Shown here: piece after piece, positions 3,858 through 10,666 of the stretch
Layout: each line of letters opens with the position of its first letter
Numbering within the stretch: the stretch's first letter is position 1
Virus record (IMG/VR): IMGVR_UViG_2609459803_000003
Span: 1-12,550 of that record
Reading direction: 5' to 3' (one strand)
DNA from: a virus
Lineage: Duplodnaviria > Heunggongvirae > Uroviricota > Caudoviricetes
DNA length: 12,550 bases
Notes under the pieces: model-generated
Told to the model about the DNA's origin: nothing
Database searches by the model: none
Seen by the model: only the letters and a program-made list of their open reading frames with translations
Translations under genes and position numbers: made by a program

Positions 3858-3877
3858 AGGTCGGTCATGAGCACTAA
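3626..3877 (+). CDS. Alternative-frame ORF overlapping the 3' half of 3519..3857; probably the true C-terminal reading frame of the same gene
   Basis: Frame open from 3626 (ORF track lists it from a GTG at 3656). Translation ...[58 protein letters not shown] is protein-like. Stop TAA 3875-3877 overlaps the next gene start by 11 nt. No convincing SD of its own. Confidence 0.4.
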
Positions 3878-4484
3878 ATTAACCGGCTATGTATGGGATG
3901 GTTGCGCTGCATCAGGCATGAAATTATCCAGCGTGGCAGTTATGGCCCGCCTGGCTGATTTCAGTAATGACGAAGGTGTGTGCTGGCCATCAATTGAAAC
4001 CATTGCCCGCCAGATTGGCGCGGGGATGAGTACCGTCAGAACGGCTATCGCACGGCTGGAAGCAGAAGGCTGGTTAACGCGTAAGGCGCGTCGCCAGGGT
4101 AACCGCAATGCGTCGAATGTTTATCAGCTTAACGTTGCGAAGCTTCAGGCAGCGGCATTTTCTCAACTGTCAGATTCTGACCCGTCAAAATCTGACGCAT
4201 CAAAATCTGACCCGTCAAAATTTGATGCGTCGAAATCTGGCAAAAAAGCGGGTTTTCACCCGTCAGAATCTGGCGGGGATCCGTCAGTAAAATCAAAACA
4301 TGATCCGTCAGATAAAAAAACTTCTCGTCCGGACGCTTCGCAACCGGACACGCAGACGGATGAACAGGATTTTTTAACTCGCCATCCTGATGCGGTTGTA
4401 TTCAGCCCTAAAAAGCGCCAGTGGGGAACGCAGGATGATTTGACCTGCGCACAGTGGCTCTGGAAAAAAATCATCGCCCTGTAA
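3867..4484 (+). CDS. Replication initiator, lambda O-like (N-terminal HTH DNA-binding domain plus iteron-encoding linker); C-terminal domain apparently missing
   Basis: 205-aa ORF with GAGG 9 nt upstream. N-terminus [70 protein letters not shown] is a winged-HTH replication-initiator type. Middle encodes SDPSKSDASKSDPSKFDASKS from a tandem DNA repeat, as the lambda O gene carries ori iterons internally. Only about 45 codons follow the repeat region before the stop, abutting a rusA remnant. Confidence 0.8.
   Translation: MSTKLTGYVWDGCAASGMKLSSVAVMARLADFSNDEGVCWPSIETIARQIGAGMSTVRTAIARLEAEGWLTRKARRQGNRNASNVYQLNVAKLQAAAFSQLSDSDPSKSDASKSDPSKFDASKSGKKAGFHPSESGGDPSVKSKHDPSDKKTSRPDASQPDTQTDEQDFLTRHPDAVVFSPKKRQWGTQDDLTCAQWLWKKIIAL
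4171..4320. repeat. Iteron array / candidate origin of replication embedded in the O-like gene
   Basis: Four tandem 15-bp units (TCTGACCCGTCAAAA 4176-4190, TCTGACGCATCAAAA 4191-4205, TCTGACCCGTCAAAA 4206-4220, TTTGATGCGTCGAAA 4221-4235), then further CCGTCAG motifs at 4260, 4281 and 4305, and an A-run (4311-4320). GACGCATCA (4194-4202) and TGATGCGTC (4224-4232) are exact inverse complements. Confidence 0.65.
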
Positions 4485-6479: not shown

Positions 6480-6496
6480 TTTGGTGGAGAAAGTTG

Positions 6497-6862
6497 ATGC
6501 GTGATATTCAGATGGTTCTGGAGCGTTGGGGAGCATGGGCGGCGAGTGATAGTTCTGGAGTAGACTATTCGCCTATAGCTGCTGGGTTTAAGGGGCTTCT
6601 TCCCTACACAAGCAAAACACGTCAGGCTTGTTCAGATAGTGATGCATTAATTATTGAAGGTTGTCTTGCTCGTCTAAAGCAAAAAAAGCCAGATGAGCAC
6701 TCGCTGCTTGTGGCACATTATTTATACAGAATATCCAAGCGTAAGATTGCAAAGGTGCGTGGAAAGGATGAAAAATTGGTACGCATAGAAATACAACTAG
6801 CCGAAGGATTTATTGATGGTTGCCTTTCAATGTTGGATGTTAACCTTGAAATGGACGCTTAG
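6497..6862 (+). CDS. Q: Late-gene antiterminator Q
   Basis: ATG at 6497 with GGAG 7 nt upstream (the track ORF begins 3 nt earlier at a TTG). Product MRDIQMVLERWGAWAASDSSGVDYSPIAAGFKGL…CLARLKQKKPDEHSLLVAHYLY…IQLAEGFIDGCLSMLDVNLEMDA closely resembles the Qin-type Q (QuuQ) as I recall it. Lies upstream of the lysis cassette. Confidence 0.75.
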   Translation: MRDIQMVLERWGAWAASDSSGVDYSPIAAGFKGLLPYTSKTRQACSDSDALIIEGCLARLKQKKPDEHSLLVAHYLYRISKRKIAKVRGKDEKLVRIEIQLAEGFIDGCLSMLDVNLEMDA

Positions 6863-6869
6863 GGTTGCA

Positions 6870-6897
6870 CAGGTTGGCCCCATATGAGGCCAACCTG
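6870..6897. terminator. Perfect 10-bp inverted repeat hairpin between convergent Q and cargo cassette (bidirectional terminator-like, no U-tract)
   Basis: CAGGTTGGCC (6870-6879), loop CCATATGA, GGCCAACCTG (6888-6897). Sits exactly between the Q stop (6860-6862) and the minus-strand stop at 6898-6900. No T-run on either side, so function as an intrinsic terminator is uncertain. Confidence 0.4.
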
Positions 6898-7347
6898 TCA
6901 CAAGTGGGGGAAGATTTTTCGTAACACTAACCAACACCTTCCGAAGGTATATAGCGAAATTATAAGGGAGGATAAGCCTAACAGTATGAATAGGAAATCA
7001 ATAGGTTTGCCCGCAACAATAACATCATCAGGTAGAAACATCGCTATCAATGGAAATATACATGCGACGATGAGAGTTAACCCTGTTGAAAGTAATCTAT
7101 TTACCAGAGTTGGTAACACGTTGTTTTGCTTAAGGGCATTAATTGCTCCTTCCTTATCGCTGTTTGCACTACTAAATATAGATATTGCAGCCAGAACAAA
7201 ACCAAACAGGATGCCTGATATAGTCGAGAGCACCCCCGCTGTTGTGAGTACGTCAGCATGCTTCATCGGTTTAAACAGTTTTGTCGCTGCATAGGTCAAC
7301 AGAATCCAGAGGACGCATTTCCAGAGAAAAGTGGCTAATTCTCTCAT
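6898..7347 (-). CDS. Small inner-membrane protein with four predicted transmembrane helices (RexB-like topology); second gene of the cargo cassette
   Basis: Track ORF 6898..7359; the ATG at 7347 has GGAGGA 4-5 nt upstream, the ATG at 7359 has none. Hydrophobic segments by eye: LATFLWKCVLWILLTYAATKLF, VLTTAGVLSTISGILFGFVLAAISIFS, LSTGLTLIVACIFPLIAMFL, IDFLFILLGLSSLIISLYTF. AT-rich. Starts 10-22 nt after the stop of the upstream 313-aa gene. Confidence 0.7.
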   Translation of the reverse strand: MRELATFLWKCVLWILLTYAATKLFKPMKHADVLTTAGVLSTISGILFGFVLAAISIFSSANSDKEGAINALKQNNVLPTLVNRLLSTGLTLIVACIFPLIAMFLPDDVIVAGKPIDFLFILLGLSSLIISLYTFGRCWLVLRKIFPHL

Positions 7348-7368
7348 TGTGTCCTCCATGCTTGGTTA

Positions 7369-8310
7369 TTAGTCTCTGCTAGCGAGCTCATACTGTGCAA
7401 GATAGTTCGCGTTATCAATTTTAGCAGATATCATCGCCGTTCTGATATCAGAATCGGATGGATAACCGCTTTTGACAATGATTGTCTTTGTACTGACCAA
7501 TACTTGGTCAAGTAGACTTTTGGGCGTTCTATTGGATGGCTCTGTTACATCAATTTTTTTAATTTTTAGACCTCCAGAACCTTTTGGAAAAAGTTCAAGT
7601 AGTTCCTTAATAGCATCGGTGACAGAAGTTTTTAGATAGTTAAACCCTTGTTTTTTCGGGCGAATCCGACCTCGCATATTTAATCTTAGATGCGACCCGC
7701 CCATACCAACAACCATGTCAATAATTTCATTAGCTAAAGGGTTTTTAATCTTATAATTAGCTTTGTTAAAGTTTCTTGGAGCAGCAACTATAAGATCGAA
7801 ACTACGTAGGATATTTCCGTCCTCAAGCAGTTCCTTCATGCTCTCTTGTTTCCAAATGGCTTCAAAAGTGACGCTTTTTAAATCAGTTTTGTTATACAAA
7901 ATGAATGCCAGATCATTTACTTTGGGCCCTATATGGTTGAGGGTCATAGCTAATAAGTCCGTTTCGTAGTAATAGATAAAATATGTTCTTTCAACTACAG
8001 AATCTTTATCATTTAAAGGAATTGTTCTCTCACTACCTGTAGCATCCTCGATGAACGGTAGTAGGCATTCCCTTCTCCACGATACGTAACCAAAGTAACA
8101 TTGCAGTGTGGTATCTTTTTGAAGAATAACTAACTTTAACCCTCGATTTGGGGTGTCTGTTGTGTAAGTTATTGGAAAAGTTACAGTATCTGCTGTGGTC
8201 ATTTGCTCAAAGGCTAGTTTTGCAGCAGATGTGCCATCTTTTTTGCTTCCATTACCAGTGAAAAAACCAACTCTCACTCGCCTGGTTTTATTCTTATTTT
8301 CTGTACTCAT
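7369..8310 (-). CDS. Hypothetical soluble protein (313 aa), first gene of the antisense cargo cassette; no recognisable catalytic motif
   Basis: Long minus-strand ORF with protein-like composition: MSTENKNKTRRVRVGFFTGNGSKKDGTSAAKLAFEQM…ERTYFIYYYETDLLAMTLNHIGPKVNDLAFILYNKTD…IIDMVVGMGGSHLRLNMRGRIRPKK… No Walker A, HNH, DEDD or similar motif seen by eye. Double stop TAATAA. AT-rich against GC-richer phage flanks. Weak SD (GGA) before the ATG at 8310. Confidence 0.75.
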   Translation of the reverse strand: MSTENKNKTRRVRVGFFTGNGSKKDGTSAAKLAFEQMTTADTVTFPITYTTDTPNRGLKLVILQKDTTLQCYFGYVSWRRECLLPFIEDATGSERTIPLNDKDSVVERTYFIYYYETDLLAMTLNHIGPKVNDLAFILYNKTDLKSVTFEAIWKQESMKELLEDGNILRSFDLIVAAPRNFNKANYKIKNPLANEIIDMVVGMGGSHLRLNMRGRIRPKKQGFNYLKTSVTDAIKELLELFPKGSGGLKIKKIDVTEPSNRTPKSLLDQVLVSTKTIIVKSGYPSDSDIRTAMISAKIDNANYLAQYELASRD

Positions 8311-8433
8311 TATCGATCCGAAATAATTTTAGCAACCGTGTGAAAAATACAACAAAAAAAAGAGGAAATCATTAGCGCGGTCCGCAAAAAACATTGTAAT
8401 CTGTTAAGAGTGGTTACTTCGCCACACAGCTTA

Positions 8434-8460
8434 AACCCGCCGTCGAGCGGGTTTTGTCGT
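8434..8460 (+). terminator. Rho-independent terminator upstream of the lysis genes (tR'-like)
   Basis: AACCCGC (8434-8440), loop CGTCGA, GCGGGTT (8447-8453), then TTTTGTCGTTTCTG. Plus-strand orientation, about 150 bp upstream of the holin start, as lambda tR' precedes S. Confidence 0.6.
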
Positions 8461-8606
8461 TTCTGTGGCTGGGGATTCGTTGGTCCTGGCCTATTCCGCA
8501 GTTCTCCATCGGTTCGGCTTCTTTGATGTTTCCGCTTCTGATTTGCGGTACATGATGTTCCCTCAATTTGCACCTGCTGTATCAGCGAGGTGAGAGATAA
8601 CTACAA

Positions 8607-8933
8607 ATGCCTCATAACCCAAATACCTGGCTGGAGTTGGTCCAGAGCTGGTGGCGTGGAGACACACCGCTGGGCGCAGTGATTATGTCGATCGTTATGG
8701 CTGGCTTGCGCATTGCCTATTTTGGCGGTGGTGGTGGCTGGAAACGAAAAACGCTCGAGATTTTGCTCTGTGGTGCTCTGACGCTGACTTTTGCATCCGC
8801 TCTTGAGTATGTCGGATGGCCTAAATCTCTTTCTGTTGCCATTGGTGGCGGCGTTGGGCTGATCGGGGTCGATGCTATTCGTGGGGCTGCAATGAGAGTA
8901 ATCGGTAATAAGTTTGGTGGCTCTAAGGAGTAA
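8607..8933 (+). CDS. S: Holin (lambda S-like class I, three predicted TM segments)
   Basis: 108-aa ORF immediately upstream of the endolysin. Three hydrophobic segments (LGAVIMSIVMAGLRIAYF; TLEILLCGALTLTFASAL; LSVAIGGGVGLIGVDAI) and a charged C-terminus, same length class as lambda S. Confidence 0.8.
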   Translation: MPHNPNTWLELVQSWWRGDTPLGAVIMSIVMAGLRIAYFGGGGGWKRKTLEILLCGALTLTFASALEYVGWPKSLSVAIGGGVGLIGVDAIRGAAMRVIGNKFGGSKE

Positions 8934-9413: not shown

Positions 9414-9789
9414 GCTGGTTATTGTTGCCTTCTTTGTTACCGTCATTGGTTCCTTCATCTGGTCTGCCGGGCATTACTACAGCAAATATCTGCACGAAAA
9501 GGAGCGTGCTGATGAGGCTATACGAAATGCTGAATCAGCAACTGCCATTACCCGTAACGTTCTGCAATCACTGCAAATCATCAATACAGTTATAGAGGCT
9601 AACCAGCATGCAAAACAGCAGATTGCACTGGAGTCACAGAAAACCCAGGAAGATATCAAAGTGGCTGTTGCGGATGATGATTGTGCTTCACGTCCTGTGC
9701 CTGCTGCCGCTGCTGACCGGTTGCGGAAGTACGCGGACAGTTTACGTGAACACTCCGGCGGTACCACTGCCAGCCAGCTTGACTTCTGA
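9397..9789 (+). CDS. Rz: Rz-type i-spanin (inner-membrane spanin subunit)
   Basis: ATG at 9397 overlaps the endolysin 3' end. N-terminal signal-anchor MKLRYKLVIVAFFVTVIGSFIW followed by a charged, helix-prone periplasmic region. Position and architecture are typical; at 130 aa it is shorter than lambda Rz (153 aa). Confidence 0.8.
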   Translation: MKLRYKLVIVAFFVTVIGSFIWSAGHYYSKYLHEKERADEAIRNAESATAITRNVLQSLQIINTVIEANQHAKQQIALESQKTQEDIKVAVADDDCASRPVPAAAADRLRKYADSLREHSGGTTASQLDF

Positions 9790-9922
9790 TACACCTGTAC
9801 CGTTTATACCCAACCCACTGACGTATGGTGCAAGTCTTGATTTGAATGTAAGTTTGTTATCCGCGTTGGCTCAATGTAATAGGGATAAGTCTGATATCAG
9901 AATCATTGATAATCAAAATTGA
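9674..9922 (+). CDS. Rz1: Rz1-type o-spanin lipoprotein, starting inside Rz in the +1 frame and extending beyond the Rz stop
   Basis: Within track ORF 9608..9922; start placed at ATG 9674 (or 9677), giving MMIVLHVLCLLPLLTGCGS… with lipobox LLTG|C. Mature part is Pro-rich (TPAVPLPASLTSDTPVPFIPNPLTY) like lambda Rz1. The ORF continues 133 nt past the Rz stop into AT-rich sequence. Confidence 0.65.
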   Translation: MMIVLHVLCLLPLLTGCGSTRTVYVNTPAVPLPASLTSDTPVPFIPNPLTYGASLDLNVSLLSALAQCNRDKSDIRIIDNQN

Positions 9923-10125
9923 TGTATATTTTTATCGTCATGTAGATAACGAACAAGGTATTCCTCTGATACGTTTCGTTGAATACAGGTCATGGGTAGG
10001 CATTGCAATATCGCTTCGAAATTATCTGTGATAATGCTCTTAATTTTGAATGTATGTATTTGGGAAAAGAGATAAAGTAATAGTCTAATTAATGGAGATA
10101 TCCACAAAACACAAAAGGGACTATT

Positions 10126-10632
10126 ATGCGACCAGATCAATTTTTCTATCCAGATACTTTTACCTTTAATTCATCCACCTATTATGGTCAACGTGACTCA
10201 TCTAAAGGTCGATTGTATATTCCTATTGAAAGTGACTTATGTCCATTTAATATCGGCGATATCATTGTGCAAAAAATGGTCGACAGGGAAAGACTATTTG
10301 AAGTGCTTGATTACGAGGTGCAAATTAGTCTCGAGGCTGGTTGCCCTGGCTACTCACATTTGGCGGTATTGATAGTGAATGCATTGGATGTAAAAGAGAA
10401 GCCGAAGCAGATTACGACCCATTTGACGTTTAACGGTGCTATTAATGCTGGTGGTGATTTTCAAGCCGGTAATGACAATTCGATCACAAAGAATATAACC
10501 ATTCAACAACTACATGATGCTATAGAGCATTGCAATGATCCAGAGGTTAAAAGCCTTTGGCAAAAGCTATTGGAAAATCCGACGTTTGCTTCAATTGCTT
10601 CAATATTGGCAAAAAGTGCTTTAGGACAGTAA
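10126..10632 (+). CDS. Hypothetical protein (168 aa), AT-rich orphan cargo gene between lysis and packaging modules
   Basis: ORF with AAAGGGA before the ATG. Product MRPDQFFYPDTFTFNSSTYYGQRDSSKGRLYIPIESDLCPFNIGDIIVQKMVDRERLFEVLDYEVQ… has no TM segments and no motif I recognise. Preceded by about 200 bp of AT-rich non-coding DNA and followed by its own terminator. Confidence 0.7.
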   Translation: MRPDQFFYPDTFTFNSSTYYGQRDSSKGRLYIPIESDLCPFNIGDIIVQKMVDRERLFEVLDYEVQISLEAGCPGYSHLAVLIVNALDVKEKPKQITTHLTFNGAINAGGDFQAGNDNSITKNITIQQLHDAIEHCNDPEVKSLWQKLLENPTFASIASILAKSALGQ

Positions 10633-10640
10633 TTCATCAA

Positions 10641-10666
10641 GCCCCATTCAATATGGGGTTTTTATG
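10641..10666 (+). terminator. Rho-independent terminator after the 168-aa cargo gene
   Basis: CCCCAT (10642-10647), loop TCAAT, ATGGGG (10653-10658), then TTTTTTAT; 9 nt after the stop at 10630-10632. Confidence 0.7.

What the first reader, a model, noticed from the sequence alone, without database searches (positions are those of the whole stretch)
6863..8433. Two-gene AT-rich antisense cargo cassette in the Q-to-lysis hotspot: candidate novel phage-exclusion module with RexA/RexB-like architecture
Between Q (ends 6862) and the late/lysis region sits a 1.45-kb insert on the opposite strand, visibly more AT-rich than the phage backbone. It encodes a 313-aa soluble protein (8310..7369) with no motif I recognise, followed 10-22 nt later by a roughly 150-aa protein with four predicted TM helices (7347..6898). 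This is the position where lambdoid phages carry host-benefiting cargo (stx in Stx phages, nmpC or csp genes in K-12 cryptic prophages). A roughly 300-aa soluble protein plus a roughly 145-aa 4-TM partner is the architecture of lambda RexA/RexB and other two-gene abortive-infection systems; the second TM helix region (GVLSTISGILFGFVLAAISIF) loosely resembles the RexB segment I recall (GATLSSYAGTMIAILIAALTF), but I cannot establish homology by eye. The cassette is convergent with Q, bounded on the Q side by a perfect 10-bp inverted repeat (6870-6897), and separates Q from the presumptive late terminator at 8434-8460, so it would be expressed in the lysogen from its own promoter.
Basis: partly seen in the sequence, partly recalled or inferred. 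Interest (0 to 1): 0.85.

Follow-up and report, generated by a model that had tools for sequence, protein, structure and literature searches.

The report
Distant RexAB-like two-gene prophage cassette
A 1.5-kb foreign insert wedged between a prophage's late-gene activator Q and its target promoter encodes a distant relative of phage lambda's RexA protein plus a four-helix membrane partner, so it is most likely a new member of the classic Rex phage-exclusion systems, of which only five have been described.

The parts
6494..6862 (+). Late antiterminator Q gene (backbone; convergent neighbour of the cassette)
   Evidence: PF06530 Phage_antitermQ, E 7.7e-52. A Q homolog lies 16-44 nt from the end of the pair in 38/48 viral loci.
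6863..8350 (-). The inserted cassette as a whole (about 1.49 kb, AT-rich)
   Evidence: In E. coli KC-Dl-1 (L019), a Q gene that is 81% identical is followed within about 10 nt by the block that starts at window position about 8350. GC is 0.36-0.39 against about 0.5 for the backbone.
6870..6897 (.). 10-bp perfect inverted repeat with an 8-nt loop, directly after the small gene's stop codon; likely terminator or insulator of the cassette transcript. No T-run in this allele.
   Evidence: Sequence. Folding gives -27.3 kcal/mol (z -6.1) on the minus strand and -21.4 (z -3.7) on the plus strand. It is absent from the empty site. A hairpin at the same place, with an unrelated sequence, occurs in 11/12 Q-convergent alleles; two loci have canonical T-run terminators (L056, and L088 in a non-Q context).
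6898..7347 (-). Small gene: 149-aa four-helix inner-membrane protein (RexB-like partner, putative effector); phrog_8552
   Evidence: ORF. Homologs are 145-150 aa. AF2 pLDDT 81.3 with four long helices. Hydropathy shows 2+2 TM segments with a polar central loop at 63-83, as in RexB and Sbash gp31. BFVD rank 2 is Sbash gp31. No Pfam RexB hit and hhalign is not significant.
7352..7357 (-). GGAGGA Shine-Dalgarno for the 7347 start codon
   Evidence: Read from the sequence; consistent with the 149-aa homologs and the PGAP call.
7369..8310 (-). Large gene: 313-aa soluble protein with the RexA/RdgC fold, an outlying DUF6731 member (putative sensor); phrog_7651
8326..8355 (-). Best candidate promoter of the cassette: TTGTTG, 18-nt spacer, extended -10 TGcTAAAAT. 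Unverified.
   Evidence: Read from the sequence and from my own scan. The tool's stricter scan did not report it. It would leave a leader of only about 9 nt, and no motif is conserved across contexts.
8372..8400 (+). pR'-like late promoter (TTAGCG, 17-nt spacer, TGTAAT) with a palindromic GCGGTCCGC in the spacer; backbone, not cassette
   Evidence: Sequence. The block is conserved and lies directly next to Q in the empty site. It is homologous to the region just downstream of Q in many lambdoid phages.
8433..8464 (+). tR'-like intrinsic terminator of the short late leader transcript; backbone
   Evidence: Terminator scan: 8-bp stem, 5 GC pairs, T-run. Fold. Conserved in the empty site.
8607..8933 (+). 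Lambda-family holin S, first gene of the late/lysis operon (context)
   Evidence: PF05106, E 5.7e-25; annotation in L001.

Best explanation
The cassette is a RexAB-type two-component phage-exclusion (abortive-infection-like) module carried as a self-contained antisense accessory insert (moron) between Q and pR' of an e14/HK97-like lambdoid prophage.

The 313-aa protein is a cytoplasmic RexA-superfamily protein from a divergent branch of DUF6731. Like RexA, it probably forms a DNA-binding dimer. The 149-aa protein is a four-helix inner-membrane protein with the same 2+2 layout and polar central loop as RexB and Sbash gp31.

Proposed mechanism, by analogy with lambda RexAB, Sbash gp30/31, CarolAnn gp44/43 and P. 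putida RexABpp: both proteins are made in the lysogen. Infection by an unrelated phage produces a trigger, either a phage protein or a replication/recombination DNA-protein intermediate. The RexA-like protein senses it and engages the cytoplasmic face of the membrane partner. The partner then opens as an ion channel or pore. The membrane depolarises, ATP falls, growth stops, and the infection aborts.

Shown here: fold and profile homology of the large protein to RexA; the four-TM architecture of the partner; strict adjacency, co-divergence and purifying selection of the pair; horizontal mobility of the pair between accessory slots; the insertion relative to an empty site; and a terminator-like hairpin closing the unit.

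Inferred: expression in the lysogen, dimerisation and DNA binding, interaction between the two proteins, channel activity, and any defence phenotype.

For: Sequence: the window branch matches classic DUF6731 at E 5.6e-38. DUF6731 (141 sequences) matches the RexA family (25 sequences) at Prob 91%, E 1.1e-6, over 255 co-linear columns. Twelve reversed or shuffled decoys give E 0.14-0.6. The result is unchanged after removing the seven most RexA-like members (E 2.5e-6). One DUF6731 member hits Pfam RexA at E 2e-4.

Partner: four TM helices. BFVD rank 2 is Sbash gp31 (prob 1.0, TM 0.52).

Pairing: 48/48 viral loci have the partner 9-31 nt downstream. Identities co-vary with r 0.97 from 84% to 30%. 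pN is far below pS.

Mobility: the pair is found at the Q|pR' junction, beside a P4-like primase and a superinfection-immunity gene, beside the tape-measure gene, and beside int/CI of P2-like phages. A bona fide RexAB pair also sits beside a P4-like primase.

Defence context: distant relatives of both proteins hit the two halves of PADLOC candidate PDC-M67 (A: 20 members, best E 1.6e-8; B: 4 members, best E 0.005). PDCs were derived from cassettes embedded in BREX, DISARM or type I RM loci.
Against: There is no experimental or expression evidence of any kind.

Neither window protein hits Pfam RexA/RexB, PADLOC or NCBIfam directly. The shallow family profile alone is not significant against RexA. 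A plain HMM search of the PDB does not recover RexA. The link therefore rests on profile-profile comparison through DUF6731 plus a predicted structure.

The small protein has no detectable similarity to RexB. Lambda RexB is not among its top 50 viral structural hits. The Sbash gp31 match has a marginal E-value (0.03), and four-helix bundles are common.

The location differs from lambda's immunity region.

No convincing promoter was found.

The Rex field itself is unsure whether exclusion is RexA's primary role. The Butters system also shows that the roles of the two components can be reversed.
Confidence: 0.6

Rival explanations
1. The pair is a prophage developmental modulator rather than a defence system. 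The RexA-like DNA-binding protein tunes the prophage's own lysogeny-to-lysis transition or late transcription, for example by acting at the adjacent pR'/Q-binding region, and the membrane partner antagonises or sequesters it. Any exclusion would be a by-product.
For: [quoted passage not shown] The cassette sits exactly between the Q stop codon and the -35 of pR' in 38/48 loci, even though Q alleles and cassette alleles are shuffled relative to each other. Its 5' end is only about 55-75 nt from the conserved pR' spacer palindrome.
Against: The same pair also occurs without any Q gene: beside a P4-like primase, beside the tape-measure gene, and beside int/CI of P2-like phages. Distant relatives (PDC-M67) are embedded in BREX, DISARM or RM loci. 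The membrane partner is retained in 48/48 loci, which a pure DNA-level regulator would not need.
Confidence: 0.15
2. The pair is a two-component system with reversed or different roles. One option is a Butters-type arrangement, in which the soluble protein is the toxic effector and the membrane protein sequesters it. Another is a superinfection-exclusion or toxin-antitoxin-like addiction pair acting at the membrane by blocking DNA entry rather than by abortive infection.
For: In mycobacteriophage Butters the RexA-like gp30 is the effector and the RexB-like gp31 is dispensable for defence (PMC12894663). In L092 the pair is next to a superinfection-immunity gene. The pair is strictly linked and co-diverging, as expected for a cognate neutralising pair.
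Against: Four of the five described Rex-like systems use the membrane protein as effector. The best viral structural matches include Sbash gp31, a proposed ion-channel effector. Nothing in the large protein's model resembles a nuclease or any other toxic enzyme.
Confidence: 0.15
3. The pair is a Kiwa-like system, with a KwaA-type four-TM sensor and a KwaB-type soluble effector.
For: The size classes are similar (a protein of about 300 aa plus a four-TM protein). One member of the small-protein family hits PADLOC KwaA at E 0.0016.
Confidence: 0.02
4. The pair is lysis-related: the small protein is a holin, antiholin or lysis regulator, given its membrane character and its proximity to the lysis genes.
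For: It lies next to the lysis cassette. A few family members give sub-threshold hits to holin families (Phage_holin_5_2 at E 0.006, Hol_Tox at E 0.07).
Against: It is on the opposite strand, upstream of pR', and so outside the late operon. A complete S/R/Rz set already follows. The pair also occurs far from lysis genes in other elements. It is always coupled to a RexA-fold protein.
Confidence: 0.03

Closest known systems
Bacteriophage lambda RexA/RexB exclusion system (Pfam PF15969/PF15968; RexA structure PDB 8TWQ)
   Different: Neither protein meets the Pfam RexA or RexB models. The partner shows no detectable RexB sequence similarity. The cassette sits between Q and pR' on the opposite strand, not downstream of cI in the immunity region, so it cannot be co-transcribed with the repressor from pRM. 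It is 34 residues longer than RexA.
P. putida prophage P1 RexABpp (PP_5643/PP_5644; Sci Rep 2026, PMC12894663)
   Different: The host and prophage type differ. RexABpp lies near a CI-like repressor. I could not obtain the PP_5643 sequence, so whether it belongs to DUF6731 is unknown. The window cassette has no experimental data.
Mycobacteriophage Sbash gp30/gp31 and Gordonia phage CarolAnn gp44/gp43 Rex-like systems
   Same: Each is a soluble sensor plus a four-TM effector with an essential central cytoplasmic loop. Sbash gp31 is the second-best viral structural match of the window's small protein. Like the window cassette, the Sbash pair lies away from the repressor.
   Different: The hosts are actinobacterial. 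gp30 is 372 aa and is not detectable with either the RexA or the DUF6731 profile (E 0.89 and 0.28). The sequences are unrelated.
Pfam DUF6731 (PF20505) and PADLOC candidate PDC-M67 (A>>B), untested
   Same: The window's large protein is an outlying member of this superfamily (profile E 5.6e-38). Close homologs at 61% identity and below hit PF20505, and PGAP names the cdtI-type allele 'DUF6731 family protein'. PDC-M67 is a two-gene A>>B cassette. Relatives of both window proteins hit its A and B models respectively.
   Different: The window proteins themselves score below every threshold for PF20505 and PDC-M67, so current tools do not flag this cassette. No paper in the searched library mentions DUF6731, and none connects it or PDC-M67 with RexA.
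RdgC (recombination-associated DNA-binding ring; PDB 2OWL)
   Different: RdgC is a chromosomal, stand-alone gene with no membrane partner, and it is a weaker structural match than RexA.

Membership tests
RexAB-type exclusion system (lambda Rex) | [quoted passage not shown] | tested here: met
RexAB-type exclusion system (lambda Rex) | Sequence homology of the soluble component to RexA | tested here: met
   The homology is remote and profile-level only. DUF6731 (including the window branch) against the RexA family gives Prob 91%, E 1.1e-6, over 255 columns, with decoys at E>0.1, and the result is robust to pruning. It is not seen with the narrow family profile or with a plain HMM search against the PDB.
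RexAB-type exclusion system (lambda Rex) | Match to the curated Pfam models RexA (PF15969) and RexB (PF15968) | tested here: not met
   There are no hits at E<=1 for either window protein. One of 141 superfamily members hits RexA at E 2e-4. None of 32 small-family members hits RexB.
RexAB-type exclusion system (lambda Rex) | Partner is a four-TM inner-membrane protein of about 145 aa encoded immediately downstream on the same strand | tested here: met
   The partner is 149 aa with a 21-nt gap, four long helices and a hydropathy layout like RexB and gp31. It is present in 48/48 related loci.
RexAB-type exclusion system (lambda Rex) | Sequence homology of the membrane partner to RexB | tested here: not met
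   hhalign of A2 against the RexB family gives Prob 0.8%. The accepted RexB-like proteins gp31 and PP_5644 also fail this test.
RexAB-type exclusion system (lambda Rex) | Located in the immunity region next to the cI-type repressor and co-expressed with it in the lysogen | tested here: not met
   In the window it lies between Q and pR', antisense. The repressor-like gene is at 1928-2620, about 4.3 kb away. Sbash, Butters and Rubeelu also break this rule. In the distant allele L099 the pair does sit beside int and a CI-type repressor.
RexAB-type exclusion system (lambda Rex) | Soluble component dimerises and binds DNA non-specifically | not testable with these tools
   No multimer or DNA-complex prediction was available. 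EMSA and SEC-MALS would be needed, as in PMC11077077.
RexAB-type exclusion system (lambda Rex) | Both genes confer exclusion of other phages, with membrane depolarisation or growth arrest on triggering | not testable with these tools
   This needs plaque and liquid-infection assays and membrane-potential dyes.
Pfam DUF6731 (PF20505) | Score above the Pfam gathering threshold | tested here: not met
   The window protein gives 0 hits at E<=1. Homologs at 61% identity and below do hit (P0022, E 7e-8, 32.7 bits against a cut-off of 27), as do 124/141 superfamily members. The window branch against classic DUF6731 by hhalign gives E 5.6e-38. The protein is therefore an outlying member that the current model misses.
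PADLOC PDC-M67 (untested two-gene defence candidate) | HMM hits to both the PDC-M67A and PDC-M67B models on adjacent genes | tested here: not met
   The window proteins give no PADLOC hit at E<=1. Of 141 large-family relatives, 20 hit M67A (best E 1.6e-8). Of 32 small-family members, 4 hit M67B weakly (E 0.005). The nearest intermediates do not hit.
Kiwa (KwaA/KwaB) | Soluble component carries DUF4868 (KwaB); the membrane gene comes first | tested here: not met
   No DUF4868 or KwaB hit was found. The gene order is soluble first, then membrane. The top structural hit is RexA.
Late-operon cargo of lambdoid phages (stx-type morons between pR'/tR' and S) | Located downstream of pR'/tR', on the late strand, and transcribed by Q-modified RNA polymerase | tested here: not met
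   The cassette lies upstream of pR' and on the opposite strand. The classical slot (8465-8606) is essentially empty in this window, whereas in L019 it holds a tRNA-Ile.

The most novel reading that the evidence does not exclude
The cassette is a Rex-type module that is wired into the late-gene switch. It has been selected to sit exactly between Q and Q's target promoter. Early rightward transcription running through Q would then collide with and silence it when its own prophage is induced, giving self-immunity by transcriptional interference. In addition, or alternatively, the RexA-like DNA-binding protein acts at the abutting pR'/Q-binding element. Exclusion of foreign phages and control of Q-dependent late transcription would then be coupled. 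More broadly, DUF6731/PDC-M67 as a whole would be a large RexAB superfamily that also operates outside phages, embedded in BREX and RM loci.
Probability: 0.12. Interest if true: 0.75.

Novelty: new member of a known kind. Interest (0 to 1): 0.58.

Why it matters
RexAB is the oldest known phage-exclusion system, yet its trigger and mechanism are still unresolved. A 2026 paper counts only five Rex-like systems (PMC12894663).

This finding would add a sixth, sequence-divergent family. It lives in E. coli and other Enterobacterales, in about 2% of complete E. coli genomes for the two alleles counted. These are hosts where large coliphage panels, T4 rII mutants and lambda genetics are immediately available.

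It also links the uncharacterised Pfam family DUF6731 and the untested PADLOC candidate PDC-M67 to RexA. That would turn a 'domain of unknown function' with at least 171 clusters at 50% identity into a testable Rex superfamily, and it shows that current defence finders miss this branch.

The precise, recurrent placement between Q and pR' identifies an accessory slot distinct from the classical stx slot.

Tried and rejected
- Direct scans of both proteins against Pfam, PADLOC and NCBIfam: nothing usable. PHROGs gave only unknown-function families 7651 and 8552.
- phmmer of both proteins against PDB sequences: nothing.
- phmmer of lambda RexA and RexB against all collected homologs: nothing.
- hhalign of the shallow family alignment A1 against RexA (single sequence or family): not significant. 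Only the broad DUF6731 alignment works.
- hmmsearch of the DUF6731 profile against the PDB: does not find RexA, only sub-threshold eIF2-alpha noise.
- Lambda RexB has no solved structure and is absent from the top 50 BFVD hits.
- Literature searches for DUF6731, PF20505 and PDC-M67 returned no papers. The PDC supplement gives only family codes.
- The search for related loci with the 141-sequence alignment failed because the alignment is too diverse. A narrower alignment worked.
- Sigma-70 promoter scan: 0 sites in 6700-8700. My looser scan found no motif conserved across contexts.
- Rfam and tRNA scans of the region: nothing.
- I recalled the accession for phage Sbash wrongly at first; KP027195 is phage Cosmo, and the correct record is KP027201.
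- I could not obtain the P. putida PP_5643 sequence, so I could not test whether the characterised RexApp is a DUF6731 member. The ten cluster look-ups returned Aeromonas, Pseudoalteromonas and Serratia proteins, or unnamed ones.
- dN/dS could not be estimated properly because synonymous sites are saturated. Only pN and pS are reported.
- The Kiwa, holin and stx-slot readings were considered and rejected (see rivals and membership test).
Full report
**1. Observation**

The window carries a lambdoid (e14/HK97-like) prophage segment: a repressor region, replication and Nin-like genes, KilA-N, DUF968, Q (6494-6862; PF06530, E 8e-52), then holin (8607-8933), endolysin, Rz, HNH, terminase, portal and onward.

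Two minus-strand ORFs lie between Q and the holin: 8310..7369 (313 aa) and 7359/7347..6898. The small gene starts at 7347. Its homologs are 145-150 aa, PGAP aa, and a GGAGGA Shine-Dalgarno sits at 7357-7352.

GC falls to 0.36-0.39 across the large gene, against roughly 0.5 in the flanks. The 10-bp perfect inverted repeat at 6870-6897 and the terminator-like hairpin at 8433-8454 are both present.

**2. The cassette is an insertion, and its borders**

I searched 5,426 complete E. coli genomes with a synthetic query joining the 3' end of Q to the sequence from 8340 onward. This found prophages in which a Q gene that is 81% identical runs, in a single aligned piece, straight into the block that begins at window position about 8350. 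In strain KC-Dl-1 only about 10 nt separate the Q stop codon from that block.

The block contains a promoter-like TTAGCG-17-TGTAAT with a palindromic spacer (GCGGTCCGC), a conserved downstream segment and the terminator. It has the anatomy of a Q-dependent late promoter with its short terminated leader, and it is homologous to the region just downstream of Q in many lambdoid phages.

The insert is therefore about 6863-8350. The hairpin at 6870-6897 belongs to the insert, and 8350-8465 is backbone.

The cassette thus sits upstream of pR' and antisense to it. That differs from the classical cargo slot between tR' and S where stx lies. In this window that slot is almost empty, while in KC-Dl-1 it holds a tRNA-Ile.

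**3. What the large protein is**

Direct Pfam, PADLOC, NCBIfam and PDB-sequence searches found nothing. PHROGs place it in unknown family 7651.

Homologs occur across the Enterobacterales. From about 61% identity downward they carry Pfam DUF6731. A profile search of 1.84 billion representatives found 171 clusters, and 124 of the 141 aligned sequences hit DUF6731. The window branch aligns with classic DUF6731 at E 5.6e-38.

An AlphaFold2 model (pLDDT 79.5, pTM 0.77) was searched against solved structures.
- Foldseek's only hit below E 0.001 is RdgC.

This is the structural neighbourhood that Adams et al. reported for RexA (PMC11077077).

Profile-profile comparison of the 141-sequence DUF6731 alignment with a 25-sequence RexA family alignment gives Prob 91%, E 1.1e-6, over 255 co-linear columns: RexA residues 2-274 against query residues 13-310.
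- Twelve reversed or column-shuffled decoys score 12-17, with E 0.14-0.6.
- Removing the seven most RexA-like sequences, or the whole window branch, leaves E at about 2e-6.
- Two motif anchors are shared: an N-terminal GF[FY], and GPxxxDLxxxL (window G128-P129...D133-L134 against RexA G-P...D-L). Both are invariant or nearly so within each family.

Negative results:
- The shallow family profile alone is not significant.
- A plain HMM search of the PDB does not recover RexA.

I conclude with fairly high confidence that the large protein belongs to a RexA superfamily that includes DUF6731.

**4. What the small protein is**

It is a four-helix membrane bundle. The AF2 model has pLDDT 81 with helices 2-24, 30-60, 77-104 and 116-145, plus a short helix in the central loop. 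Its hydropathy layout is 2+2 TM segments around a polar loop (63-83), the same plan as RexB (144 aa) and Sbash gp31 (165 aa). The most conserved parts of the family are TM2 and an A-L-K motif in the central loop.

There is no detectable sequence similarity to RexB: hhalign gives Prob 0.8%, and no Pfam RexB hit appears in any of 32 family members. The accepted RexB-like proteins gp31 and PP_5644 also lack such similarity.

A Foldseek search of predicted viral structures ranks a 165-aa Sbash protein second (E 0.03, prob 1.0, TM 0.52). Gene 31 is the only 165-aa CDS in the Sbash genome, so this hit is gp31, the validated RexB-like effector whose central loop is essential (PMC6426596).

This is suggestive rather than decisive. 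Four-helix bundles are common, the E-value is marginal, and lambda RexB itself is not in the top 50.

**5. The pair as a unit**

In 48 of 48 viral-contig loci analysed (large-protein identity from 100% down to 29%), a homolog of the small protein follows 9-31 nt downstream on the same strand. The identities of the two proteins to the window copies co-vary with r = 0.97 and a slope near one. Non-synonymous divergence is 0.09-0.24 while synonymous sites are saturated.

A GC-rich hairpin follows the small gene's stop codon in 11 of 12 Q-convergent alleles. The stem sequences are unrelated, and two loci have canonical T-run terminators: L056, and L088 in a non-Q context. The pair therefore looks like a closed transcription unit.

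Its promoter is not established. The best candidate in the window is an extended -10 (TGcTAAAAT, 8334-8326), which would leave almost no leader, and nothing is conserved across contexts.

**6. Where the pair lives**

In 38 of the 48 loci a Q homolog is convergent 16-44 nt from the end of the pair, and the pR' spacer palindrome lies about 55-120 nt upstream of the large gene. Q alleles and cassette alleles are shuffled relative to each other.

The remaining loci place the same pair in three other settings:
- beside a P4-like primase and a superinfection-immunity gene;
- beside the tape-measure gene;
- beside the integrase and CI repressor of P2-like phages.

All of these are typical accessory slots of temperate phages and satellites. 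A bona fide RexA/RexB pair in Erwinia also sits beside a P4-like primase.

In E. coli the window allele is nearly clonal, at >=99% identity in 73 of 5,426 genomes, including one plasmid-borne copy of the prophage. The cdtI-phage allele, which PGAP annotates 'DUF6731 family protein', occurs in 25 more.

**7. Defence context of the superfamily**

Twenty of 141 large-family relatives hit PADLOC PDC-M67A (best E 1.6e-8). The top PADLOC family for the small-protein family is PDC-M67B (4 members, E 0.005).

PDC-M67 is a two-gene A>>B cassette. It is one of 145 untested 'phage defence candidates' derived from cassettes first found embedded in BREX, DISARM or type I RM loci. Weak hits to both halves of the same candidate are independent, context-based support for a defence role. 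The window proteins themselves fall below every PADLOC threshold.

**8. Mechanism**

By homology and architecture, the best-supported model is a Rex-type sensor-effector pair. A cytoplasmic RexA-like protein, probably a DNA-binding dimer, senses an infection cue. It then activates a four-TM channel or pore, which depolarises the membrane and arrests growth, aborting the infection. This has been proposed or shown for lambda RexAB, Sbash, CarolAnn and P. putida RexABpp. Every functional step is inferred.

Rivals:
- a role in the prophage's own lysis-lysogeny or late-gene control, which is a documented RexA activity and is made plausible by the Q|pR' placement;
- a Butters-type reversal of roles;
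- Kiwa-like and lysis-related readings, which are poorly supported.

**9. Novelty and verdict**

No paper in the searched library mentions DUF6731 or PDC-M67, and none describes this pair. A 2026 paper counts five Rex-like systems.

This is a new, sequence-divergent member of a known kind, in a new genomic slot. It also yields a new superfamily link (DUF6731/PDC-M67 to RexA).

Interest is moderate (0.58). The finding is not conceptually surprising, but it offers an experimentally tractable E. coli Rex-like family that current defence finders miss.

Noticed in passing
window 9750-10650 (ORF 10126-10632, +): A second AT-rich patch (GC 0.32-0.40) lies between the Rz-like lysis gene and the HNH endonuclease. 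It encodes a 168-aa protein of PHROG 5789 (unknown function) with no Pfam, PADLOC or NCBIfam hit, and may be another accessory insert (moron). In the otherwise matching E. coli LD22-1 prophage the equivalent stretch is annotated as a single 252-aa hypothetical protein.
   Followed up: partly
window 8378-8386 (+), within the pR'-like promoter spacer: The palindrome GCGGTCCGC lies between the -35 and -10 of the late promoter. It is conserved in the empty-site prophage and in most diverged Q-linked loci (as GCGGACCGC or GCGTACGC on the other strand). It is a candidate Q-binding element.
   Followed up: partly
loci L034-L088, just after the small gene's stop codon: A hairpin closes the cassette in 11/12 Q-convergent alleles. 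The stem sequences are entirely different from one another, so the structure is conserved and the sequence is not. L056 and L088 have canonical T-run terminators.
   Followed up: yes
L013 (Erwinia sp. S38) and L092: A bona fide RexA/RexB pair (PF15969/PF15968) and a DUF6731-type pair each sit next to a P4-like primase (Zn_Ribbon_Prim, Toprim, DUF927). This suggests that both families use the same satellite accessory slot.
   Followed up: no
L008 and L009 (Yersinia enterocolitica CP016940): One genome carries two different lambdoid prophages, each with an identical RexA/RexB pair downstream of a different repressor/Cro module.
   Followed up: no
L100 (E. coli plasmid pHNAH212872-2, 100.8 kb): The same cassette-bearing prophage segment, from the repressor through to the head genes, is present on a plasmid record at 99.9% identity.
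   Followed up: partly
window 3867-4484 (+), especially about 4108-4300: The 205-aa ORF contains a low-complexity run of PSKSD/ASKSD-type repeats. The same DNA gives repeat-like ORFs in other frames on both strands (QNLT/QILT-type repeats).
   Followed up: no
L019 3881-3956 (E. coli KC-Dl-1): In the empty-site prophage the classical cargo slot between tR' and the holin holds a tRNA-Ile. That slot is only about 140 nt long in the window.
   Followed up: no
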